Below are positions 13,321-44,100 of a stretch of DNA of 64,000 nucleotides, piece after piece. The translations under genes and the position numbers were made by a program. The notes under the pieces were generated by a model that was given only the letters and a program-made list of their open reading frames with translations, did no database searches and was not told the DNA's origin. The DNA is from Mobula hypostoma (taxonomy: Eukaryota): assembly GCF_963921235.1 (NCBI RefSeq), contig NC_086097.1, positions 17,794,001-17,858,000 of the forward strand, read 5' to 3'. Each line of letters starts with the position of its first letter. The first letter of the stretch is position 1.

Positions 13321-14071
13321 CTATATGAGGCAAGGGCATATTTTCAGTATCTCCAGCTGAGCAAAGTGAAATCAGTTGGGGTCCTACTGTCTATAACATT
13401 TAAGTGGTATTTTGTGTTGTCTTCATATGTTTTCTAAGAGCATCTGTACACTACTGTGTGAGCATAGCTAAAAAAAATTAACTATGTGATTTTGGATAAA
13501 TGAAGGCTTTCATTAATCTTCAACATAGTATCAATCAATGCACATAAAGAGAAATGTAAGATAATGATGTGACTGTGGAAGAGAAGGAAATACAAATAAA
13601 CTGTAGATTATGTGATGGAGTAGTTGCCAGAACCATTTGTTGTTGACATACAATAGGCAGAGCAACAGAGACCCTCTTTTACACTTGTTATTTCCTGATG
13701 CAAACTTCTTGGCTTGATGACTTCAATCATTGGCCATATCCAAAAAATAATGTTGCCAAATGGGATCAATGCACACATAATGTTATAAGTTTCATGGTAC
13801 AGTTCAAATAATGACAACATATTTTCTTTTCTCAGTAGTGTTGTCATTTGAGACTAAAATTTTGATACATCTTTCTACTTCTGTCAGACTTATTGAATAG
13901 TATTAATAATTACAAAAGTTATTATAACTGTTTACAAAAAATCTTGGAAAATGTAAAAAATGTTTTTTTCTGGTTATTATTTAATTAAAACCCTGTGGTA
14001 TATATTAAAATAAAAACAAATTTGGAATGTTGCAGTCCCTAATGTTGTTATGATGCTGTGTTGTGTTTCAG

Positions 14072-14194
14072 ATAAGAATGAGTGCTTGATTTCTGGCATT
14101 TGTGCACATGGGAATTGTGTCAACATGGAAGGGTCTTATAGATGCATTTGTAACCAAGGTTTTGAGCATGTGATAGACCAGAAGAGCTGCAGAG
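14072..14194 (+). CDS. LTBP2: cbEGF exon [42 protein letters not shown]
   Basis: tgtgtttcag acceptor, 123 nt open, six Cys, G|gtttgt donor. Confidence 0.93.
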
Positions 14195-17100
14195 GTTTGT
14201 GAACATTTTCAAACATGTCCAATGCTAGCTTGCCAATACTGACTCATGATATTCCTTTAAGCATTTAGTTGTTCCTTCTTTGCATGTGTGTGCTTTACTG
14301 TTAACTTCCTCCTCCTCCTCCCAAAACAAAAAAACACATTATTGCTTATCCTTGACTTTTAAAATTCTTGGGCCTGGAAGATTAAAAAATGTTGTGCTCT
14401 GACTAGTAGGTTTAATTGTGAACCTGTTCTCACTACTGCACTGGGCATAGGACATTTGAAAACGTGAAACAGAAGTTTTTATGGGGCAAATCTCTATAAA
14501 GGACATAAGCCACAGAACCGGTGGCTGTAACAACTAGCAGCAGAGAAAGCAACAGGGAGGATGTGATGATTGAGAAATTGGGTGCTGCTCCATCTGACAA
14601 GACACCATGGTAGAAGTAAACAGATGAAAGCAGAGCCGGATATATATATAGCCAACTAGTAACAAGTGAATTAAGAAGAAATGTTAAAGCAGAAAATCAG
14701 GTTTTGAAGGGTAATTTCACTACTTGGAAAAAAAAATTACCGAAAGCTCTCATGACCTCTTCAGTGATAATGCAAATTACTCTAATCTGAAATATGACTT
14801 CATTTCTAACTCTGATTGGATCCAGCTCTGTCTGGCATCTTGTCCAGAGGCATTCCAACATGGGTGGCCTTGAGTTGGCATTGCCTGGTGGAGTCCCTGA
14901 AGTATGCAAGCCTCCACATGATGTCAACATGTTAATCCAGGTCCTGGAGGATTCTGCTTCATTGTTCTCTCAAGCAATGTGTTCTTGTTACTCACCATTC
15001 TCTACATGAGAAAGATCCTTGTCAAATCCTTTCTAAATCTCTCTTTACTTCCCCTAAATAGGTCTCTGAGATAGTGCTTCCCATTGTAATTTACAAATCA
15101 TTCCACAAATTTTGAATTCGATATTGCACTAAGCACATTTTTAATTGCAAGCAACACTCATTTATCCTAACGAACTTTACATCTTTTCTGCTACACATTT
15201 TCTTCAACCCATTCGAAAGATTTTTCCAGAGCAGCACACACAAAATGCTGGAGGAACTCAGCAAGTCAGGGAAAAACTATGGAAGGAAATAAACAGTTGT
15301 AGCGATGTGCTACACACAGAGCTAGAAATATCGACACACAGACTGTAGGTTGCACTCGAGACTAGTTTATTCAGACTGTGAGGGCGGTTGGAACGTCCGT
15401 TCTGGGGTGCACCATCATCGCGGCGTCTGCCAAGGCTTCCTTGGCTTTAACGAAAGCAGCCGCAGCCTCTTCGTCCCAAGTAATGTCCTTGCCTTTACCT
15501 GACATCAAGGTGAACAAAGGGCACAGATACGGGCTGCTGAGGGGAGGAAGCGGTGGTAGAAGTTCACCATACCAACGAACTCCTGCAGTCCTTTGACTGT
15601 GTTGGGGGAGGTGAAGTGGCGGATTGCGTCTACCTTGGCAGGCAGAGGTGTTGCCCCGTCTTTGGTAATCCTGTGGCCCAGGAAGTCGATGGTGTCGAGT
15701 CCGAACTGCCATTTGGCTGGGTTGATCGTGAGGCTGAAATCAGTCAGGCGGGAGTAGAGCTGGCGGAGGTGGGACAGATGCTCCTGACGACTACTGCTGG
15801 CTATGAGGATGCCATCCAAATAGATGAACGCAAAGTCCAGGTCGCGTCCCACCACATCCATTAGCTGCTGGAACATCTGTGCGGCATTCTTCAGGCGGAA
15901 CGGCATTCGGAGGAATTCGAACAGGCCGAACGGGGTGATGAGTGCTCTTTTGGGGATGTTTTCAGGGTGTACCGGAATTTGATGGTACCCCCAGATGAGG
16001 TCTACTTTGGAAAAGATGCTTGCCCCGTGCAGGTTTGCTGCAAAGTCCTGTATGTGCAGCATGGGGTAGTGGTCTGGAGTTGTAGCCTCGTTCAGTCTGC
16101 GGCAGTCGCCGTATGGTCTCCAGCCCCTGGCTGCTTTGGGCACCACGTGCAGGGAGGAGGCCCATGGGCTGTTGGACCGCTGTACGATCCCCAATTCCTC
16201 CATCCTCTTGAACTCCTCCTTCGCTAGGCGGAGCTTGTCTGGGGGGAGCCTTCGTGCGTGGGCGTGGAGGGGTGGTCCCTGGGTTGGAATGTGGTGCTGT
16301 ATTCCGTGTCTGGCCCCAAGAGTGCTTGGGCCATGGCTGCCAGTGTGAAGTCCCACGTGAACCGGCTGGGGCCAAACTGCAGTTGCATTGTGCGGGTGCC
16401 GTAAGTCCGTATCGTGCTGCTGTTTGCGGCCCTCAGGGTAGGTCCCGGCTCCCTGTTGCGGGTGTCATACCTCATCGGGGGTAAGACGCTGATTTCCGCT
16501 CCGGTGTCGACCAAGAAGCGGCGTCCCGACTGTCCTGGTGGCCAGCCGCTTATAGCCTTTAGCGGCGGCTGGCCCTGGCGTTTCCTGGGAACTTGCAGGG
16601 CGGGTGACAACGGTTGGCTTCTGTGCCCCACCGCTGGTGGTAGAAACACCACTGTTCATTGGCCTCCTTACTCCTGCCTCTGGGTGTGTGCGTACTGTTG
16701 CCGGGCCTGGTCTGGCCTGCTGTTGGGCGCGTGGCTAGGTAATCTGTCCAATGGACACCCCGCTTTTCCTCTTGGCTTTTCACAGCATGTCTGCCTGGGC
16801 CGCCACCTTCCGGGGGTCACTGAAATCTGTGTCGGCCAGCAGCAGATGTATGTCCTTGGGCAGTTGCTGTAGGAACGCCTGCTCAAATATGAGGCAGGGC
16901 TTGTGTCCTTCAGCCAGGGCCAGCATCTCGTTCATTAATGCTGATGGCAGCCTGTCTCCCAAACCATCCAGATGTAGCAAGTGGGCACCTCGCTCACGCC
17001 GTGAGAGGCCAAAGGTCCCTATGAGCAGCACTTTGAATGCTGCATATTTGCCTTCTTCTCTGGATGACTGTATGAAATCCTCAACCTGGGCGGCTGTCTC

Positions 17101-20100
17101 CTGGTCAAGGGAGCTCACCACATAATAGTAACGCGTGGAATCAGAAGATATCTGCCGAATATGGAACTGGGCTTCTGCGTGGTCGCAGCATCCAGAAAGT
17201 TGGCAGTTTTAGCGAAACTGCGTGAACAGATGAAGAGTCGGTCATCTTTGGTCCAAATCCCGTTTGGACCGTTGGGGTCACCAATGTAGTGATGTGCTAC
17301 ACACAGAGCTAGAAATAACGACACACAGTCTGTAGGTTCCACTCAAGACCAGTTTATTCAAACTTCATGGCACTGGCTTTTACGCAGTTCCGTTCCTGCC
17401 CTCTCCGGGCAGAAATGATGTCAGAGGTGCATTACAAAAGTCTTTTCCCGCACGCAGGCTTTCTTCCCTTGCTGGCGAAGAAGAAAGCCCAGTGTCATTT
17501 TGGGGCTGGCCGCTCTGCTGACGTGCACGCCATTTTGTGAGCCGGTTCGCCTGTGTAGAAAGTGGGTCGCCACACAGTCAACATTTTGGTCTAAAACCCT
17601 TCATCAGAACTGGAAAGGAAAGAGATAAAAGCCACTGTTAAAAAGTAGGTTGAGAGAAAGGAGCAGAAGCTGGCAGGTGGTAGGTGAAACCAGGTGAGAG
17701 TGAAGATGAGTGGGTGGGGGCAGATAATGAACTAAGAAGCACCTCATTCCTTCCCCCAGCTGCTTTTTCTGGCTTTTGCCTCTTCCTTTCTAGTCGTGAT
17801 GAAGGGTAAGACCCAAAATGTCGACTGTTTATTCTCCTCCTCAGATGTTGCCTGACCTAAGTTCCTCCAGCATTTTGTGTGTGTTGCTTAAGATTCAGCC
17901 GAATTTCTTCCATTTAAAAGATTTTTCCAACAAGCTTCTCTTTTAATTGCAGACTCTTCTTATTTGTTTTCCATAACCCTTCATGATTTGTACACTTCTT
18001 TTAAATGTCCTTTTAATCTTTTCTGCAATCCCTTTAAGATCTTCATGTTGATTTGAACCATTGTGCACAAAATGGACACAGTATTCCATTTGTGACTTAA
18101 CTAATCCATGGAACAAACTGCCAGCACAAGTGATGCATGTAAGCTCAATTTCAACATTTAAGAGAAGTTTGGACAGGTACGTGAATGGTAGAGCTATGAA
18201 GGGCTAAGGTCCCAGTACAGGTCAATAGTAGCAGGCAGTTTAAATCGTTCGGAACAGTCTAGATGAACCAAAGGGCCTGTTTCTGTGCTGTATCTTTCTA
18301 TGACTGTATAGCATTATTTCCTTTTGTACTCTAGCTTCTGTTTATAAAATCCTGGATCACTTATGTTTTAAGCATTTTGTCGAACCATTGTCAAATATTT
18401 GTGCATATCTACCCTCAGATCTCTATTCATGCATTTCCATTAGAACTGTGCTCCTTTGATTGTTTTGCTTCTGTTCATTTTCCTATCAAAATACATCATC
18501 TCAAAATTCTTTGCACTAAATTTCAAAATTCAAAAGAAATTTATTATCAAAGTACATATATGTCACCTTATACAACCCTGAGATTAGTTTTCTTGCGGGC
18601 ATACACTGTAAATCCAAAAACACAATACTGTAAGATCAATGAAAGAGCTCATCCAGCAGGACAAACTAACAACCAATGTGCAAAAGACAACAAACTATGT
18701 AAATTCAGAAGAAAAAATAATAATAAGTAAATAAGCAATAAATATCAAGAACGTGAGATGAAGAGTCCTTGAAATCGAGTTCAGTGATGGGGTGAGTGAA
18801 ATTGAGTAAAGTTATCCTCTCTGGCCAAGGGGTCAATGGTTGAGGGGTAGTAGCTGTTCCTGAATCTGGTAGTGTGGATCCTGAGGCTCCTGTACCTTCT
18901 TCCTGATAGCAGCAGTGAGAAAAGGGCATGGCCTGGATGGTGATGGTCCTTGATGATGCTTTCCTGTGACAGTGATCCATGTAGCTATGCTTTCTTTATA
19001 ATTGCTTATGTGCTGACACCAGGACAGATCCTCTGAAATGATAACACTGAGGAATTTTAAGTTGCTGACACTATTTATTTCTGATCCCCCGATGAGGCCT
19101 GGCTCATAGACCTTTGGTTTCTTCCTTCTGAAAGCAATAATCAGCTCCTTAGTCTTGCTGACATTGAGTGAGATATTGTTGTTGTGGCACCACTCAGCCA
19201 AATTTTCAATGTCCCTCTTATATGCTGATTTGTTGCCACCTTTTATTTGATGGTTCTTTTCATGTACCATATCTCCATCAATTTTATCGCTTTTCTGAAG
19301 TCTGTTACTTTATTGAAAGTTTTATGGCATTTTCAGAATTTGAAATTGTTTCATTTCCTTATTCCCTAATATAATTTAACTAGTCCCTGATAATAGGTCT
19401 CCTTTTACTACTTGGTTTTTACAGTCCTATGCAACGTTTTACTTTTTATGTAATAATTACTAGCTCATTCTCATTTTATTTTAGCCATCTCTTATAGTTT
19501 AGTCATATGTTCATTGAATACTCTGAAATATCTGTTTAAATGTTTCTCACAGTTCATCTACTATTATATCTTTTAATACAGTTTTGTAGTCTACTTCAGC
19601 CAATTTGTCCTTGCACTGAGGTGATTAGCTTTATTTAAGAGAATACCTTTGGACTTTTGTATACAGTATCAGTTTAAAATGCTATGAACGTTTTCATCAG
19701 ATTATTATCACTGTCACTAGTGAATCAGTTAGTATGAGAATGTCTTTTAATCATGTAACGTTATAGAAGAAGAAAGTAAATATAGATAGGAAAACTGATA
19801 ATATTCTGTGGAAATAAATTCTCACTCCTTTTTCATGTTTATCTGTATCTGTAGCTAAGTTGTTAACTGGGAATCTGGGATACTCATCTGAGCATGAATT
19901 ATATGAAATGTGCCCCAATTGAGTTCGCACTTAGTTGAATACTGATAGTAGTGCCTATAGATCAAACACCCTGATTTTCATTTTGGTCTTTGAACTGCAC
20001 ATTTACACAATTAACTGTGCTCTGTTTGTATTTGATCCTACACTGAATTGTCCATGCTTCAAGTAACAGTCTGCTGAAACTTGAACATAGTTACTATATT

Positions 20101-23100
20101 TTCTATGCAGATATTGATGAATGTATATTCCATGATATTTGTTTGAATGGACTTTGTACAAATACTGAGGGATCCTATACTTGCTCAGACTGCAATCCTG
20201 GATACAGAATATCAGATAACAGACAGGCATGTGAAGGTAGGTCTAATGGAGGTATGATGTAGAAATTGAATAACATCAACAGAATGCTTCTGTGGTTTGA
20301 AATAATGGAATTTATTATCCTTTACGCTGTAGACATTGATGAATGTTTATCTCATGATGCTTGTTTGAATGGACTTTGCACAAATACTGAGGGATCCTAT
20401 ACTTGCACAAACTGCAGTCCTGGATACAGAATATCAGAAAACAGACAGACATGTGAAGGTAGGTATAATGAAGGTATGTTTTAGAAATTGACTGCAATAA
20501 ACCAGAACATATCTGGCATTTTAAATAATGAAATTTATTGTACTTTATGCTATAGACATCGATGAATGTATATCCCCTGATGTTTGTTCCAATGGACTTT
20601 GCGTGAATATCGAAGGATCCTACATATGTTCAGTCTGCAATACAGGATACAGAACATCAGAAGACAAACGGACATGTGAAGGTAAGTATGGAGGTACAAT
20701 GTACAAGCTAACTGCAATTAAAGCATAATGATTCTGTCTATAATTCCACTGGTTGGTGATATTTCCATCTCTTGCCTTTAAATTAGATTATATTAAAATA
20801 TCACAAACAAGAGAATGTCTGAAGATGCGGAAAATCGGAGCAACACACACAAAATGCTAGAGGAACTCAGCAGGCCAGGCATCATTTAGGAAATGAGTAC
20901 AGTCAACGTTTCGGGACGAAACCCTTTGGCAGGACTATAGGCCAGTTAGTCTGGCTTCGGTGGCTGGCAAGATGTTAGAGTTGATTATTAAGGTTGAGGT
21001 TTCTGGGTACTTGGAGGCACATGATAAATAGGCTGTAGTCAGCATGGTTTCCTCAAGGGAAAATCTTGCCTCAAAAATTTGTTGGAATTCTTTCTAGAAA
21101 TAACCAGCAGGATAGACAAAGGAGAATCAGTTAATGTTGTGTACTTCGATTTTCAGAAGACCTTTGACAAGGTACCACACATGAGGCTGCTTAACAAGCT
21201 ACGAGCCCATGGTATTTCAGGAAAGATTCTGGCATGGATAAAGCAGTGGCTGATGGGCAAGAGGCAAAGTGTGGGAATAAAGGGAGCCTTTTCTGCCTGG
21301 CTGCCAGAAACTAATGTTGTTTTACAGGGGTCTGTGTTGGGGGTGATTCTTTTGCATTATATGTTAGTGATTTGGATGATGGCTTTGTTGCAAAGTTTGC
21401 AGACAATATGAAGGTAGGCAGAGGAGAAGATTGTTTTGAGGAAGTAGAAAGAAGCAGATTAGGAGAATGGGCAAAGAAATAGCAGATGGAATGCAGTGTC
21501 AGGAAGTGTATGGTCATGCACTTTGGTAGAAGAAATGAAAGAGTTAACTATTTTCTAAAAGGAGAGAAAATACAAACAACTGAGGTGCAAGGGGACTTGG
21601 GACTCCTTGTGCAAGATTCCTTAATTTGCTGGTTGAGCCTGTGGTGAGGAAAGCAAATGCAATGTTAGCATTTATTTCAGAAGGACTAGAATATAAAAGC
21701 AAGGATGTACAGTAATGTTAAAAATTTATAAAGCACCAGTGAGGTCTCACTTGGAGTATTGTGAGCAGTTCAGGTCCCCTTATCTTAGAAAGGATGCGCT
21801 GAAACTGGAGAGGGTTCAAAAGAAGTTCACAGAAATGATTCCAGGATTGAATGCCTTGTCATGTGAAAAGCATTTGATGGCTGTAGGCCTGTATTCACTT
21901 CATTCAAAAGAATGAAGGGTGACCTTATTGTAACCCATCAAATGGTGAAAGGCCTTGATACAGTGGATATGGAGAGAATGTTTCCTATGGTGGGAGAGTC
22001 TAAGACCGGAGGACACAGCCTCAGAATAGAGCTGCGTCCTTTTGGAACAGAGATGAGGAGGAATTTCTCTAGCTAGAGTGTGGTGAACCTGTGGAATACT
22101 TTGTTACAGGCAGCTGTGGAATCCAAATCTTTATGTATATTTAAAGCAGAAGTTAATAGATTCTTGATTGGTCAGGGCATGAAGAAATACGGAGAGAAGA
22201 CACGAGATTGGGGCTGAGAGGAAAATTGGATCAGCCATGATGAAATTCCGGAACAGGCTCGATGGGTCAACTGCTCCTATATCTTATGGTTTTGTGGAGT
22301 ATAAGAAATGGAGGAGGAGGAGGAGAAGATGGCGACGTGACACAGTGCACGTGGCCTCTCCAGTGAATGATATCTTTGTCAAGTAGGGTAGTGTGCACAA
22401 TTCTGATTTGATGGAGACAAATGTGAGAGTACAGAGGAACATCTGGAGAATCTTCTGAAATGCCCGCTTCGCTGCCATTGCTACTGTGTGGTAACTGGAA
22501 TCTCCGGAGCAGAAGTTTCCGAATCCTCGGCTTTGCTTGTTTCGGCGGCCGGGGTTAGGTCGAAAGCGCTCGGGAGGCTGCATCGGAGGTGCGAGTCAGA
22601 GGCTCGGTTTTCAGATGGATGGACTCAGTGTCAGCTGTGGTCGGCTGCTTCCAAGGCATCGGCAGTTGTCGGTGCCTTGGAGGTTTATGGCAGGGAGTTT
22701 CTCCCTTTTGCCGCCTGCTATTGGGGACTCAGGAGTCGATCAGGACTTGAGACTATTTTTTAACCGTGCCCATGGTCTGTTCTATATCAAATTATGGTAT
22801 TGTTTTGCACTGCTGTAACTATATGTTATAATTATGTGGTTTTGTCAGTGTTAGTCTTTGGTTTGTCCTGCTTTCTGTGATATCACTCTCAAGGAACATT
22901 GTATCATTTCTAAATGCATGTATGCATTTCTAAATGACAATAAAAGAGGACTGAGTGTTCTCAGAATCTAAAAAATGCAAGAGAACGAAATAAAAAGAGA
23001 GACTTCAGGATGGCTAAAAGGCATGAGGTTGCCTTAGTAGACAAGTGAAGGAAAACCCTGAAGAATTCTAAAGATATGTTAAGAGCAAAGGATTGCAAGG

Positions 23101-38100: not shown

Positions 38101-41100
38101 CGCGTTGTACCACACTCAGTTAAATGAAATATAATCTCAAAATCATGCTCATCAAAAAGACAACCACCTATACCAAAGAGTCCAGTACAGACTTAAAAGT
38201 ATTTTTTTTATCTTTGATCTCTGGTATTTTCATGTCTTCTTTTTCTCTCTCTGTGCTTTTTAAAGAACCAATTAATTGTAAACAGACATGAACAATGGAA
38301 TCATAGAAGATTTGTGATGCAAAAGGAGGACTCTATACCCATCAGGTCCATGCTCATTGAGCAAGAGCAGCAGAGTAAACAGGATTTTGGAAAATATTAC
38401 CAGTTAAGGTATAAGATGCAGGATGATTGAAAGAAAAACACCAAAATGCCAGAGGATTAGAGAAGGTGGAGAATCAAAAAGAATGAAGAGGAATGATAGC
38501 AAGAAAAATCTTAGTGCTCCAACATTGTTACGTTGTGCAAATTTTCTGCACTGTTCAAGTTTTCTAATCTCCCTATCAATGTTCTTTTACAGACATCAAT
38601 GAGTGTTTGAATAAGGACATCTGTGGTCCAAATGGGGAGTGCATAAACAATGAAGGGTCCTATTTCTGCCAGTGTGCCAGTGGTTTTTCCAGTAGTCCTG
38701 ATGGTACAAGTTGTCAAGGTAAGATATCATCAGGATAGACCTATGTTTCTGTATGTCACCCTGTTAGTAAGTTGAAAAACTTAGTAACATTTAGTAGGAT
38801 TTCCTTTTACTGCAGAAATCACATTTTCAATTATCTTCAAGATTTTTCATTTTTTCAGAAGATAATTGAGTGTGTGGTATGATGTTCCCAAAATACTTCT
38901 GTATGAAACTAAGCTATAGTTAATATGGAGCAATGAAAATGAGATTTCCTTTGATTGCAAGATGCTGGCTACACTTATTGTATGATAATAAAACCAAAGA
39001 GATCATACGGCATAGGCCCATTTCCCTCATCAAATCTGCTCCACCATTCCATCATGGCTGATTTATTATCCCGCACAACTCCATTCTCCTTCCTTCTCCC
39101 CGGTAATCTTTGACACCTTTACAGATCAAGAACCTATCAACTTCCACTTTAAATATCTGCAGTAACTTAGCCTCCACAGCCTTCAATGGCAATGAATTCC
39201 ACAGATTTACTACCCTAATGCTAATCAAATGAAAATTTAAAAAACAGTAAAATAACAGCAAAATTTATTTTTCTTTTTTAGGTCGTAAGTAGTAAATTTT
39301 AATTGATCTTAACTAAAGGTTCCTTGAAACCATCAATCATTGTTTTTTAGAATTAATTCTAATAAATTAGCACATGAAATCCAAAGCAATGATGCATGGT
39401 CAAGATTGCTGTAAACAAGAACCTAATAATAATGATGATCAAATACAGTATTAAACATTTAGTGCAGTTTTATGTGTATTTCTGACTAATGTCATTATGT
39501 ATGCAATATTAAAAATAAGATAACATTCTAAATCTAGTTATGAATGAATCTGGAAAATTACTTAGGACAAAGGGTTAGGATCATAATGTTGTGGATAAAC
39601 TCCAGTAGTTAACTAAGGACAAACCTTCAAATATTTTGAGTTAGTTTTTGTCGTATAGAAATAAATTGCAAAAAGTATATATCATAAGGTAAGTTGTGAA
39701 TGTGCCAATAGTATTGCAATGTTGTTATTACTATGGAGAGCATACTCTCCTAGAAAATCACTAACACTCACTATGAATGGAAAGCAAACATTTGCAGAAG
39801 GTTACAATGCTCCAGGTTTTACACAATTTAAATTCTTAAAGGCTGAATTCAACTTTAATAGGAGATAGACAATAGACTTCTCATTATATAACTGGTAATA
39901 TTTTCTCTTCCATTCTAATAAGTCAGTTAAATAGAAAGTTAAAAATGGGAGCTGTTCAGATATTGAATTTTACCTCACCTAATTCTGGGAAATTAGAAAG
40001 CAACATTTCAATAAATAGTGTAAATATTGAATAAACAATATTTTATTGACATGAGATCAAAGCAGAATACTAAATATCTGCCGCCATATCTGCCGGAGGA
40101 AGTGATGGATGCAGGTTCAATTTCAACATTTAAGAGAAGTTTGGATGAGTACATGAATGGGAGGAGTATGGAGAGCTATGGTCCAGGTGCAGGTCGATTG
40201 AACTAGGCAGATTAATAGTTCAGTATGGACTAGATGGGCTGAAGAGCCTGTTTCTCTGATGTAATGCTCTATGTCTTTATTAGAATAGATCCTATTCTGT
40301 AAATTCATTTCAAATCAAATTAAGAAGTCAATGCAAATGCTTCTTTTAAAATTAATGAAATGAATAATGGTACTGTAAAGTAGAAAGAGTTAATTAAAAT
40401 GTTACTGTCGATAATATTGCATTCTGAGAACTATGTTCAAAACAGTTTGTTTGAAGTTGAAGTATTTTTTTCAACAAGGCAAACATCAAACATAAACATG
40501 AGGCTCAGTGTGGTGAGCTTGATACAGAAAATAGGTATTGGGTTTTACTATTAGATTACATAAAAACGTAGGAACATATAAAGGAACAAGAGTGAACAAG
40601 AGTAAACAAGTGGTCCCTCAAGCCTACTCTGCCATCCATTATGATTGTGGTGGATCCAGTCATTTCCTGTCAAGCTGATTCCAAATATTCACTTTCTGAT
40701 TAGCCTCCTAAAAATGGTGCATGTTTCATCTGATTCTTCTAAACACCTCTGAGTTTATGCGCAGTTTACTAAATCTCTCTCTTACAGCCTGATTACAACA
40801 CTCTCCACCATCCTGGGAATCAATCTGGTGAACTTTCATTGCATTTCATTGAAATTATATTCTTCCCTGTGTAGGAGAGCCAGACGAATATTCCAAATGA
40901 AATCTTAGCCTGGATATATAGGTAATTTCCAATTATGGCAAAACTCCAGTAATTTGCTATCCAACAATTTGATAATCCCAGTGCTTTGGCATGTGGGTCA
41001 CTGGGTACTGACTCTCAACCCTTCTTGAACCAGAACCTTGGACTTGTGCTTTGTTTTAAAAAAACTCACAGGGTTTTATTCACTCTTTACATATTGGAGC

Positions 41101-44100
41101 CCTATTCTCAAACTCATTTTCACATCGGAGGTCCATGATCCCATGTTCCATTCCCCACATTTCACACACTTCCTTTGATCCTTGTACCACACTCCCTTTA
41201 AACTCGAGTGGATTTGTTGCCCACACTTCTTTGAAACTTTCCGCAGGCTTGTTTCCAATGTTCCTTTTAATCCTACCTAGTTCAATGAAAACTTTATTAT
41301 TGTACTTTGTAACATACATAAAAAATTGAGAGTGCATTGGTGTATGATATTCAATTGTCTGGACAATCTGTAGTTATGTCCCAGCGAAGTTGTAAGCATT
41401 TAGGGTGTACGGTATTTCTGTTTGTGTCGTCAATTCCTCAATTGAGATAAGTCACCTGCAGTTTTAGTTTTTCTTTATCATTTTCTCAACTCTGACTCTA
41501 AGTGCTGATGTAATTTTATTTTTTTGTGTACTTAGACATACTCTGGTTATCATAATCTATTCTGTATCATTGTTAGCCGGGGTGAGGTGCTGGTAATGGA
41601 TGTTGTACCTTTATTTTTGAATGTTGAAGTTTGTACCTTTATTAAAGAAAGTGGGCAAAAAAATGAGTGGGAACTACAAAAGTAAGTCTACCATCTGAGA
41701 AAGATAAGCTATAGTGTCTATGATTATGACTACCCTTTAGTATTTGCTGATCCTTTAACTGTAACTCACCTTAGTTTCACCTTACCAAATCTCTTCCCTC
41801 ACCTATTTAGTTTAAAGCAATTAATAGTAGGTTTGTAATGTGTAATGAACCATTTCAATTTAGTCAATTTTGAGGGTCTTTTCAGCTATTTTTGCTCCTG
41901 AACTCCCCTGTACTGTTACACCTACTACATTATGCTCCACAGATATTAATGAATGCTTGACTAAGGATATTTGTGGACCCAATGGAGAATGTATAAACAA
42001 TGAAGGAGGCTCTTATTACTGCCTTTGTGCTCAGGGCTATACCACTACTCCTGATGGAACAGGCTGTGAAGGTAAGACCTATGTCAATGTCCGCTACTAA
42101 AATGCCTACTAAATGTAATGTACATGATTCGTAAACTAACTGAATGTTGAACAAGTGTTTTTTGGCTGTTTTGGTAATCAAGAAGAGGGGAGGGTGGAGG
42201 AGCAGTGCTAGGTGATGTTTGGCATTTTAGAAGCTAAATATTCCATCTCCTGTATTGTCACCCTGTTGATAAGGATGTGGGTAATGCAGCAGTGAGAAGT
42301 AGTTTGACTTAGACAATCAAGATGAAATTAATTTTTGATTTGGGGAAATATCACAGTAATAGTCAGAAATGAAATTAATGAGGATTCATCCAGTGAAGCT
42401 TTGTAGATGGAGCTGAGAAATAAGAAGAGGATGGTCACCTTGCTGGGGTTCTACTATAGGCCCAAAAGAATCAACACGAATTAGAGGAACAAAAATGCAG
42501 GGAGATTGTGGAGAGCTGTAAGACTCAGTTTGTCACAGCTGGGGATTTAAACTATCTTAACATTGATTGGGACTGCCATAGTGTTAAGAATTTAACGGGG
42601 ATGGAATTTATCAGTATGTTCAGGAAATTTCCCTCAAGCAATATATAGAGAACCAAGCAACATATATCACATCACATAATTCAGTGATAATGCATTTGAT
42701 CCTGCCCTACCAGGGCAAAGACAAAGCTTGTTCTACTCTTTGGTAATAGGGAAAGTGGCAGACGTTAAAGTGGGAGAGCACTTTGGAACCAGTAGCCATA
42801 TTTCTATTATTTTTAAAACTAGTTATGGAGAGCGATGACTGGTTCACATATTCAAAGTTCTAAGTTGGGGCCAGGTCAATTTTGATGGTATTAAATACAA
42901 GCTGGCAAAGATTTATTGGAGCTGGTTGCTTGCAGGTAAAGAGATCTCTGTCAAGTGGAAGGCTTTTAAAAGTAAAATCAAGCTTGCAATGTTCCTGTTG
43001 AGAGTGAAGGGCAAGGCTAGCAGGGGTAAGGAACCCTCAATGACAAGAGATATTGAGATCTTGGTCTGGTAAAAAGAAGCATGGGAAGATGTGAAGCCCT
43101 GGATGTGTATAGGGGATACAGGAGTATTCTCTAGATGGAAATCAGCAGAGCGAGAAAGGAGACATGGGATATATTTAGAAGATTAAGGAGAATCTAACAG
43201 ATTCTTAATGAATTAAATGCATTAAACAAAAAAAGAGTAATTTGGGACCCCTTGGAGACGAAGTGGATATCTATGTATGGAGTCACAGGAGATGGGCAAG
43301 GATCTCAATGAATGTTTATCCTCTGGTTTTACCTTTAAATAAATGGGTAAATTGGTTTATTGTTGTCACATGTACTGAGTTACAGTGAAAAATGTCATTA
43401 CAACAGTGCATTGAGGTAGTACAAGGTATAACAGACTGCAGAATAAAATGGTACAGTACAGCAAAAGTGCAGTGCAGGTGTTTAGTAATGTGCACCGTCA
43501 CAATGGAGTAGATCATGAGTTCAAGAGTCCATTCAATATATTAAAGTTACAGGATAGACCATAAGATATAGCAGCAGAGCTAGGCTATTTGGCCGATCAA
43601 AAGAAGCTGGCGTTGAGCCTGTGTATGCTTTTAGGGGTTTTGTATGTTCTGCTGCAATGACAAGGAAGGAAAAGAGAATATCTGAGTGGGTAGGTTCTCC
43701 GATTATGCTGGCTGCTTTACTGGAGCCTTAAGAAATAGAGACAGAGTCCATGGAAGGGAGGCCACTTCCCATAGTATGTTGAGTTGTGTCTGTGATTCTC
43801 TGCAGTTTTTGTAGTCCTGTGCTGAGCAGTTGCCATACCAAGCTGTGATGCATCCAGATAAGATGTTCCGTATGGTGCATTGATAAAAATCGGTGAGACA
43901 TGACATGATGACTTTGGAACTAGTTATAGTTAATGAGGATATCTTGCAGATAGTCTGCATACAGTATTGGATGTGCTGGACATCTAAAAATGTATGAAGA
44001 TAGGCAATCTCTGAAGCCTCAGGTATCTTAATGCACGCTGTGCAGAGGTAGAGAAGAATCTGGAAGTGCCCTAGTTGAGATATTTGCATCATTGTTAATC

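What the first reader, a model, noticed from the sequence alone, without database searches (positions are those of the whole stretch)
20111..20730. Tandem triplication of a cbEGF exon together with its mini-intron (period 222-223 nt)
Seen: three 126-nt exons separated by 96-nt and 97-nt introns, in a gene whose other visible introns are 3-18 kb. The two introns align at about 76% by hand (gtaggt-taatg-aggtatg..aaataatg-aatttatt), and the sequence after exon B3 resembles them. B1 versus B2: 114/126 nt identical, 8 codons with amino-acid replacements but only 2 purely synonymous differences; all Cys and Ca-binding residues are kept. From memory, human LTBP2 has two consecutive C-x-x-C domains here. 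Inference: a lineage-specific domain gain, with relaxed or diversifying selection on surface residues or exon-limited gene conversion.
Basis: partly seen in the sequence, partly recalled or inferred. Interest (0 to 1): 0.7.

Follow-up and report, generated by a model that had tools for sequence, protein, structure and literature searches.

The report
Ray LTBP2's triplicated EGF exon
In this ray's LTBP2 gene (an elastic-fibre protein) one calcium-binding EGF exon sits in three spliced-in tandem copies, an old duplication shared with stingrays at a spot whose copy number ranges from 1 to 8 in annotated jawed-vertebrate proteins, which likely changes the length of the protein's central rod.

Summary
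Three 126-nt phase-1 cbEGF exons (20111-20236, 20333-20458, 20556-20681) are separated by 96- and 97-nt GT-AG introns that are 74/97 identical; the median of 34 measured introns in the gene is 10.7 kb. One transcript contig joins upstream exon-B1-B2-B3-downstream exon with no mismatch, and single DNA contigs of two other organisms span the triplet, so it is no artefact. A RefSeq Mobula LTBP2-like model already holds all three domains. The triplet is old, not species-specific: copies group by position across Mobula, Hypanus and Hemitrygon. In protein models this C-x-x-C module numbers 3 in 8 of 9 batoids, 1 in 9 of 12 sharks (2, 3 and 5 in the others), 4-8 in bichir, bowfin, paddlefish and gar, and 1-2 in 8 tetrapods, while the C-terminal EGF/TB order barely changes. 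Diversifying selection and gene conversion are unsupported; constraint is relaxed but still purifying. Batoids lack an upstream C-x-x-C exon, whose decayed relic lies just upstream of this window. The mechanism is ordinary; the hotspot starts where the human FGF-2/heparin-binding fragment starts.

The parts
14072..14194 (+). Upstream cbEGF exon A of LTBP2 (single copy); spliced directly to B1
   Evidence: exact match to P0127 residues 1092-1132 and splice sites; the loose end of the transcript contig before B1 is this exon's 3' end
20111..20236 (+). Exon B1, cbEGF with C-x-x-C (Cys spacing 5,4,8,2,12)
20237..20332 (+). Mini-intron i1, 96 nt, GT-AG
   Evidence: joint 'skips 96, GT..AG' in run X9; 74/97 identical to i2
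20333..20458 (+). Exon B2, cbEGF with C-x-x-C
20459..20555 (+). Mini-intron i2, 97 nt, GT-AG
   Evidence: joint 'skips 97, GT..AG' in run X9
20556..20681 (+). Exon B3, cbEGF with C-x-x-C; the most divergent copy, on a long branch
20682..20735 (+). Donor flank after B3, homologous to the 5' half of both mini-introns (likely their source); right end approximate
   Evidence: best of 32 donor flanks of the gene for both i1 (38.5, next 36) and i2 (39, next 31)
38593..38718 (+). Downstream cbEGF exon C, spliced directly to B3 across a 17.9-kb intron
   Evidence: loose end of the transcript contig behind B3; P0127 residues 1259-1300

Best explanation
This is an old, in-frame tandem triplication of one symmetric (phase 1-1) calcium-binding EGF exon of ray LTBP2; all three copies are spliced into one transcript and likely add two rigid cbEGF units to the rod between TB2 and TB3. 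Likely history (inferred): a short segment holding the exon and roughly 50 nt of each flank was copied in tandem, so that the old donor flank and acceptor flank met and formed a ~96-nt intron; a second event, likely unequal crossing-over, copied exon plus mini-intron to give B1-i1-B2-i2-B3. Shown: the triplet predates the split of devil rays and stingrays, and the copies have kept their positional identity and all fold and calcium residues while other residues change 2-3 times faster than in the protein's other cbEGFs. Shown in protein models: this module is the most variable part of LTBP2 (1-8 copies), and batoids lack the upstream C-x-x-C exon, so the net gain over a typical shark is one domain (14 vs 13). 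Inferred function: mainly spacer length, tolerated or weakly selected, possibly with an effect on FGF-2/heparan-sulphate binding.
For: Splicing: contig 7 of run X9 (7515 nt) runs A-B1-B2-B3-C with 0 differences and GT..AG joints of 96 and 97; depth is even over the three exon bins in X9, X11 (organism A) and X17 (organism B). 19 of 20 batoid models carry three copies, Pristis two. DNA: single contigs of organisms B and C span all 1171 bases with 16 and 48 differences; organism D covers 20174-20619. Age: Myliobatiform B2 clade 99/90 and B3 clade 100/99; MobulaA triplet as one clade rejected, p-AU 2e-60. Origin of the introns: their 5' halves match the flank after B3 best of 32 donors. Purifying selection: 9/98 vs 23/97, p 0.007; 26 of 26 modules keep all Cys. 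Hotspot: domain strings of 33 species. Relic exon. EGF domains tend to duplicate one at a time with exon junctions in linkers (PMC1553488 passages).
Against: The acceptor halves of the mini-introns do not match the flank before B1 better than other acceptors do (22.5 and 23.0 vs maxima 26 and 32), so only half of the junction-intron model is shown. A Mobula-only B1+B2 clade is not rejected (p-AU 0.085), and B1 copies form a clade only in the larger tree, with two long branches inside, not in the elasmobranch tree. B3's lower identity may reflect its long branch rather than an earlier duplication. For B1 against organism C, listed replacements (4/98) equal the upstream intron rate (19/511; p 0.78; 13 table rows were hidden), so B1 may be close to neutral. 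Faster change is not significant in skates (p 0.44) or three shark pairs. Copy counts rest on annotated proteins, not genomes. No function was tested.
Confidence: 0.8

Rival explanations
1. The copies were fixed and diverged under positive selection for new ligand-binding surfaces (FGF-2, heparan sulphate), so the triplet is an adaptive binding module rather than a spacer.
For: Modules change 2-3 times faster than the other cbEGFs in Mobula vs stingrays; position-specific residues are kept across families; the human FGF-2/heparin-binding fragment F2 (EGF 9-14) begins at the first such module, judged from the paper's primer against mammalian models.
Against: No dN/dS above 1 (0.83, 0.39, 0.49); replacement divergence is below intron divergence for B1/B2; the ray modules are acidic (2-3 K+R vs 7-8 D+E), a poor heparin surface; single-EGF peptides did not bind FGF-2 in the paper, so the site is not mapped to this module.
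Confidence: 0.12
2. The array is kept alike by gene conversion confined to the exons (concerted evolution).
For: B1/B2 dS (0.12) is lower than intron divergence (24% raw). In other lineages copies do group within a lineage: Narcine 1+2 (95/92), skate 2+3 (87/87), near-identical lamniform copies; positional orthology over all three-copy batoids is rejected for copy 2 (p-AU 0.0005) and marginally for copy 3 (0.04).
Against: The synonymous-versus-intron contrast is not significant (p 0.19) and no long identical tract exists (p 0.56); in Mobula, Hypanus and Hemitrygon copies are closer to the same position in another species than to each other.
Confidence: 0.15
3. Several copies are ancestral in jawed vertebrates or batoids, and most sharks and tetrapods lost them; the ray state is a retention.
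For: Non-teleost ray-finned fishes have 4-8 copies, Heptranchias two dissimilar ones, most tetrapods two; 8 of 9 batoids have exactly three.
Against: Batoid copies other than Myliobatiform B3 form one clade apart from the shark copies (95/95), and homologous 76%-identical neutral introns would be unlikely to last from the origin of jawed vertebrates (inference). An ancestral batoid triplet with later turnover is not excluded.
Confidence: 0.1
4. The triplet is an assembly artefact, or the copies are non-functional or mutually exclusive exons.
For: None found; contigs drop rare isoforms, so minor skipping cannot be seen.
Against: Copies differ by 10-21%; independent organisms carry it in one contig; a spliced contig holds all three in a row.
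Confidence: 0.01

Closest known systems
RefSeq LTBP2-like models of rays (P0127 = XP_062900141.1, labelled Mobula hypostoma; Hemitrygon P0247; Hypanus P0246)
   Same: P0127 contains B1, B2 and B3 letter for letter at residues 1134, 1176 and 1218; the stingray models have three orthologous modules.
   Different: The annotation lists the domains but gives no account of their origin, the homologous mini-introns or the relic exon.
Mammalian LTBP2 EGF 9-10 and fragment F2 (EGF 9-14; PMC4532469)
   Same: Same position in the rod and same Cys spacing (5,4,8,2,12); F2 starts at the first such module.
   Different: Mammalian models have two dissimilar copies plus the upstream C-x-x-C domain; the ray has three similar copies and lacks the upstream one. 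Binding was shown only for the human six-domain fragment.
Expansion of EGF domain repeats by single-exon tandem duplication (PMC1553488; PMC3995336)
   Same: One domain per symmetric exon, highest similarity to the neighbour, faster substitution in labile repeats; calcium-binding EGF is named among the repeat types that change unit number.
   Different: PMC3995336 finds rapid unit gain or loss rare and treats one-unit-per-exon repeats as lacking DNA proximity; here the units are 222 nt apart with the intron itself duplicated, and one site has changed in many lineages. 'LTBP' and 'fibrillin' have 0 occurrences in that paper's main text.
cbEGF cassette array in a second LTBP gene of the same genome (G000:C50, about 13.06-13.08 Mb; called LTBP4 by earlier scan notes)
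   Same: Tandem exon duplication in the central cbEGF rod, including a C-x-x-C exon, with intact splice sites.
   Different: Two-exon cassette, 7+5 exons, 2-5 kb spacing, exons 94-100% identical; no mini-introns.

Membership tests
Calcium-binding EGF domain (Pfam EGF_CA) | Score above the curated cut-off | tested here: met
   39.3, 38.8 and 41.1 bits vs 27
Calcium-binding EGF domain (Pfam EGF_CA) | Six Cys and the D-x-D/N-E ... N ... Y/F consensus (consensus recalled) | tested here: met
   kept in 26 of 26 batoid modules, position 3 being D or N
Calcium-binding EGF domain (Pfam EGF_CA) | Binds calcium and folds with 1-3, 2-4, 5-6 disulphides | not testable with these tools
   sequence similarity to fibrillin-1 and LTBP1 structures only; no model was built
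LTBP2 | Four TB/hybrid domains with a long cbEGF run between TB2 and TB3 | tested here: met
   four TB hits on C1 flank the window; Pfam TB with 4 stretches in P0127; domain string
LTBP2 | Closest relatives are LTBP2 rather than LTBP1, 3 or 4 | tested here: met
   nearest hits to the N-terminal region are named LTBP2(-like); some bird and reptile UniRef entries in the list are labelled LTBP1; no gene tree or synteny test was run
Tandem exon duplication, constitutive type | Adjacent homologous symmetric exons with homologous flanking intron sequence | tested here: met
   donor side shown, acceptor side not detected
Tandem exon duplication, constitutive type | All copies included together in the mRNA | tested here: met
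   one contig with both joints; inclusion levels cannot be measured from contigs
Mutually exclusive homologous exons | Only one copy per transcript | tested here: not met
   B1-B2-B3 in one contig; 19 of 20 batoid models hold three
Concertedly evolving repeat array | Copies more alike within than between species | tested here: not met
   in Myliobatiformes copies group by position; the pattern is met in lamniform shark models, a separate array
FGF-2/heparin-binding region of LTBP2 (F2) | Binding of FGF-2 and heparin | not testable with these tools
   positional homology only

The most novel reading that the evidence does not exclude
LTBP2 carries a 450-million-year-old 'accordion': one C-x-x-C cbEGF exon at the start of the FGF-2/heparin-binding region is gained and lost again and again (1 to 8 copies) while the rest of the protein holds still, and its copy number tunes rod length or growth-factor capture. 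In rays a self-made ~96-nt junction intron made the unit compact and easy to re-duplicate, and the gain offset the decay of the upstream C-x-x-C exon.
Probability: 0.2. Interest if true: 0.6.

Novelty: new member of a known kind. Interest (0 to 1): 0.33.

Why it matters
It is a clean natural record of how an extracellular EGF array grows: the duplicated exon, the intron copied with it, and a decayed neighbour exon are all legible in one gene. The comparison points to one labile block in LTBP2, a gene linked to human connective-tissue disease (Weill-Marchesani syndrome, per abstracts listed), and that block overlaps the fragment shown to bind FGF-2 and heparin. Natural 1-, 2-, 3-, 5- and 8-copy versions offer a ready series to test whether rod length or module number affects binding or microfibril decoration. 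The mechanism is known and the domains are already annotated, so interest is modest.

Tried and rejected
One search used exon boundaries one base off and gave a wrong frame; corrected. The homologue search with the EGF-rich region returned only fibrillin-type proteins in its top 120 and was not used. Laying runs on 13900-21000 was swamped by repeats, so its joint table was uninformative; run X19 showed no cover of the exons there, which proves nothing. No run was on record as RNA; the RNA label is a guess, though GT..AG joints make contig 7 of X9 a spliced transcript. No chimaera LTBP2 was among the 120 listed hits. The DNA search of the own genome gave 1 match, the locus itself, and blastn of the unit over 464 kb gave no fourth copy. 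Acceptor-side homology of the mini-introns was not detected. The AU test for MobulaA B1+B2 could not be run because an identical row lies on the other side. Short introns between cbEGF exons are not unique here: among 150 scored EGF_CA hits of 1040 candidates, pairs lie 263, 341 and 390 nt apart in other genes, so the informative point is the homology of the two introns, not their size. Literature: 0 papers for LTBP2 + exon duplication, LTBP + cbEGF + evolution + shark and tandem exon duplication + fibrillin + EGF; the listings showed no title or abstract on this. A 2011 Biochemical Journal paper on TB-domain protein evolution (recalled) is not held and may discuss LTBP domain counts. Supplements were not read. 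No structure or complex prediction was run: the fold class is not in doubt and no ray FGF-2 sequence was at hand.

Full report
Observation. The window holds three 126-nt exons at 20111-20236 (B1), 20333-20458 (B2) and 20556-20681 (B3), each with AG and GT borders in phase 1, separated by introns of 96 and 97 nt. TRF reports the array with period 222, 2.6 copies and score 761. B1/B2 share 114/126 bases, B1/B3 and B2/B3 99/126. The two introns share 74 of 97 columns (score 122; maximum 50 in 300 shuffles), and the sequence after B3 resembles both. Each exon encodes one calcium-binding EGF domain above Pfam's cut-off with Cys spacing 5,4,8,2,12, that is C-x-x-C between Cys4 and Cys5.

The gene. 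Four TB-domain hits on G000:C1 flank the window. The nearest proteins are ray and shark LTBP2-like models. Model P0127, labelled Mobula hypostoma LTBP2-like X1, contains the three domains letter for letter and maps by exact match to 35 segments between residues 258 and 2004; residues 1-257 lie outside what I fetched. Of the 34 introns so measured the median is 10.7 kb; the two mini-introns are the smallest, followed by 496 and 543 nt.

It is real and spliced. A 7515-nt contig of run X9 lies on B1, B2 and B3 with no difference, skips 96 and 97 nt at GT..AG, and its loose ends are the upstream exon (14072-14194) and the downstream exon (38593-38718). Depth is even over the three exon bins in X9, X11 and X17, the last from a second organism. 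Single DNA contigs of organisms B and C span 19600-20770 with 16 and 48 differences, and organism D covers B1 to B3 in two pieces. Contigs drop rare forms, so minor skipping is untested. 19 of 20 batoid models (9 assemblies) carry three modules; alternative Mobula isoforms skip other exons, not these.

Age and distribution. One model per species gives: three copies in 8 of 9 batoids (two Mobula, Hypanus, Hemitrygon, Narcine, Leucoraja, Amblyraja, Rhinoraja) and two in Pristis; one copy in 9 of 12 sharks, two in Heptranchias, three in Carcharodon and five nearly identical ones in Cetorhinus; eight in gar and paddlefish, six in bowfin, four in bichir; one or two in 8 tetrapods. These are annotations, not genome counts. 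Across the 33 strings the part after TB3 is identical in all and the last domains before it nearly so, so variation concentrates in this block; my pattern misses the first non-calcium EGF in most bony vertebrates, so their totals are one low. In trees of the 42-residue modules (few columns, many open forks) Mobula, Hypanus and Hemitrygon copies group by position: B2 at 99/90 and B3 at 100/99 in the elasmobranch tree, while B1 is not resolved there. The triplet of this species as one clade is rejected (p-AU 2e-60); a Mobula-only B1+B2 clade is not (0.085). Positional orthology across all three-copy batoids is rejected for copy 2 (0.0005) and marginally for copy 3 (0.04), and all batoid copies as one clade is not rejected (0.44). 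So the triplet predates the devil ray-stingray split; skates and the electric ray reached or reshaped three copies partly on their own; the lamniform array is likely separate.

How it arose (inferred). The first 50 nt of both mini-introns match the flank after B3 best among 32 donor flanks of the gene, narrowly for i1 (38.5 vs 36) and clearly for i2 (39 vs 31). This fits a short tandem duplication whose junction joined the old donor flank to the old acceptor flank. The acceptor half does not stand out against 32 other acceptors, so that half is unproven. The higher B1/B2 and i1/i2 similarity fits a second step that copied exon plus intron, but B3's long branch could also explain its distance.

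Selection. With the co-duplicated introns as yardstick, B1/B2 replacements are too few (9/98 vs 23/97, p 0.007), which indicates purifying selection if introns and exons are of one age. Synonymous changes (3/28) do not differ significantly from the introns (p 0.19) and there is no long identical tract (p 0.56), so conversion is not shown. Between species the triplet changes faster than the other 13 cbEGFs compared (10/123 vs 18/535 against Hemitrygon, p 0.025; 14/123 vs 20/535 against Hypanus, p 0.002; not independent), but not significantly in skates or three shark pairs. For B1 against organism C the listed replacements run at the intron rate (4/98 vs 19/511; 13 rows of the table were hidden). 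The reading is relaxed constraint on non-consensus residues with the fold kept.

A lost neighbour. All 12 sharks and most bony vertebrates have a further C-x-x-C domain two positions upstream; all 9 batoids lack it. At L008:4208-4327, about 5.8 kb before the window and in the expected intron, lies a 120-nt relic with a GT donor, a broken acceptor, stops and frameshifts. A profile from 15 such domains scores it 11.3 bits, against 1.4 for the next place in the 21-kb intron and at most 7.7 in 30 shuffles; 19 control stretches scored up to 8.2 apart from three above 20, which I attribute to intact EGF exons in those stretches. The ray rod therefore has 14 EGF domains between TB2 and TB3 against 13 in most sharks. 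Whether loss and gain are linked is untested.

Function (inferred). A cbEGF run forms a calcium-stiffened rod (established knowledge), so the simplest effect is a longer spacer. In human LTBP2 the single FGF-2 site and a heparin site map to fragment F2, EGF 9-14 (PMC4532469, passages and section 5 read); the F2 sense primer decodes to the start of the first C-x-x-C module of mammalian models. The TGF-beta-inducing activity maps to the neighbouring F3 (PMC5666796, passages). The variable block thus overlaps F2, but the site was not mapped to one EGF and the ray modules are acidic. I favour a spacer role, with altered binding as the bolder reading.

Known context. EGF repeats expand mostly one domain at a time with exon junctions in linkers (PMC1553488, passages); rapid unit change is rare overall but includes calcium-binding EGF (PMC3995336, passages). 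A second LTBP gene of this genome has a larger array of 7+5 exons, 94-100% identical, with intact splice sites, also noted by earlier agents. I found no paper on LTBP2 copy number in fishes (searches returned 0; listings only), but most subscription papers are not searched.

Verdict. Real, expressed, old and already annotated; a new member of a known kind. The added value is the comparative hotspot, the copied intron and the relic exon. Interest 0.33.

Noticed in passing
L008:4208-4327 (G000:C1:17788208-17788327, about 5.8 kb before the window): Decayed 120-nt relic of the upstream C-x-x-C cbEGF exon that sharks keep and all 9 batoid models lack; donor intact, acceptor broken, stops and frameshifts.
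   Followed up: yes
L043-L045 (G000:C50:13060718-13082210): A second LTBP gene carries a tandem array of 7 + 5 cbEGF exons, 94-100% identical, with intact splice sites and 80-92% identical surrounding blocks.
   Followed up: partly
L048-L049 (G000:C50:13110895 and 13115099): Two exons 4.2 kb apart encode an identical cbEGF peptide in the same gene.
   Followed up: no
proteins P0269 and P0132: Basking shark (5) and white shark (3) models have near-identical copies of the same module: a young or homogenised separate expansion, or an assembly effect.
   Followed up: partly
proteins P0144, P0138 and other lizard and snake models: Squamate LTBP2 models also lack the upstream C-x-x-C domain, a likely independent loss.
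   Followed up: no
window 38593-38718 and 41943-42071: The next two exons are an older duplicate pair shared with sharks; skate models have only one of them.
   Followed up: partly
window about 20800-20950: A high-copy repeat, likely a SINE (label from my own knowledge), starts about 120-150 nt after B3; very high contig depth.
   Followed up: no
proteins P0246 and P0248: Hypanus models have a 43-64 residue insertion after the second downstream cbEGF that reads as an extra EGF-like unit.
   Followed up: no
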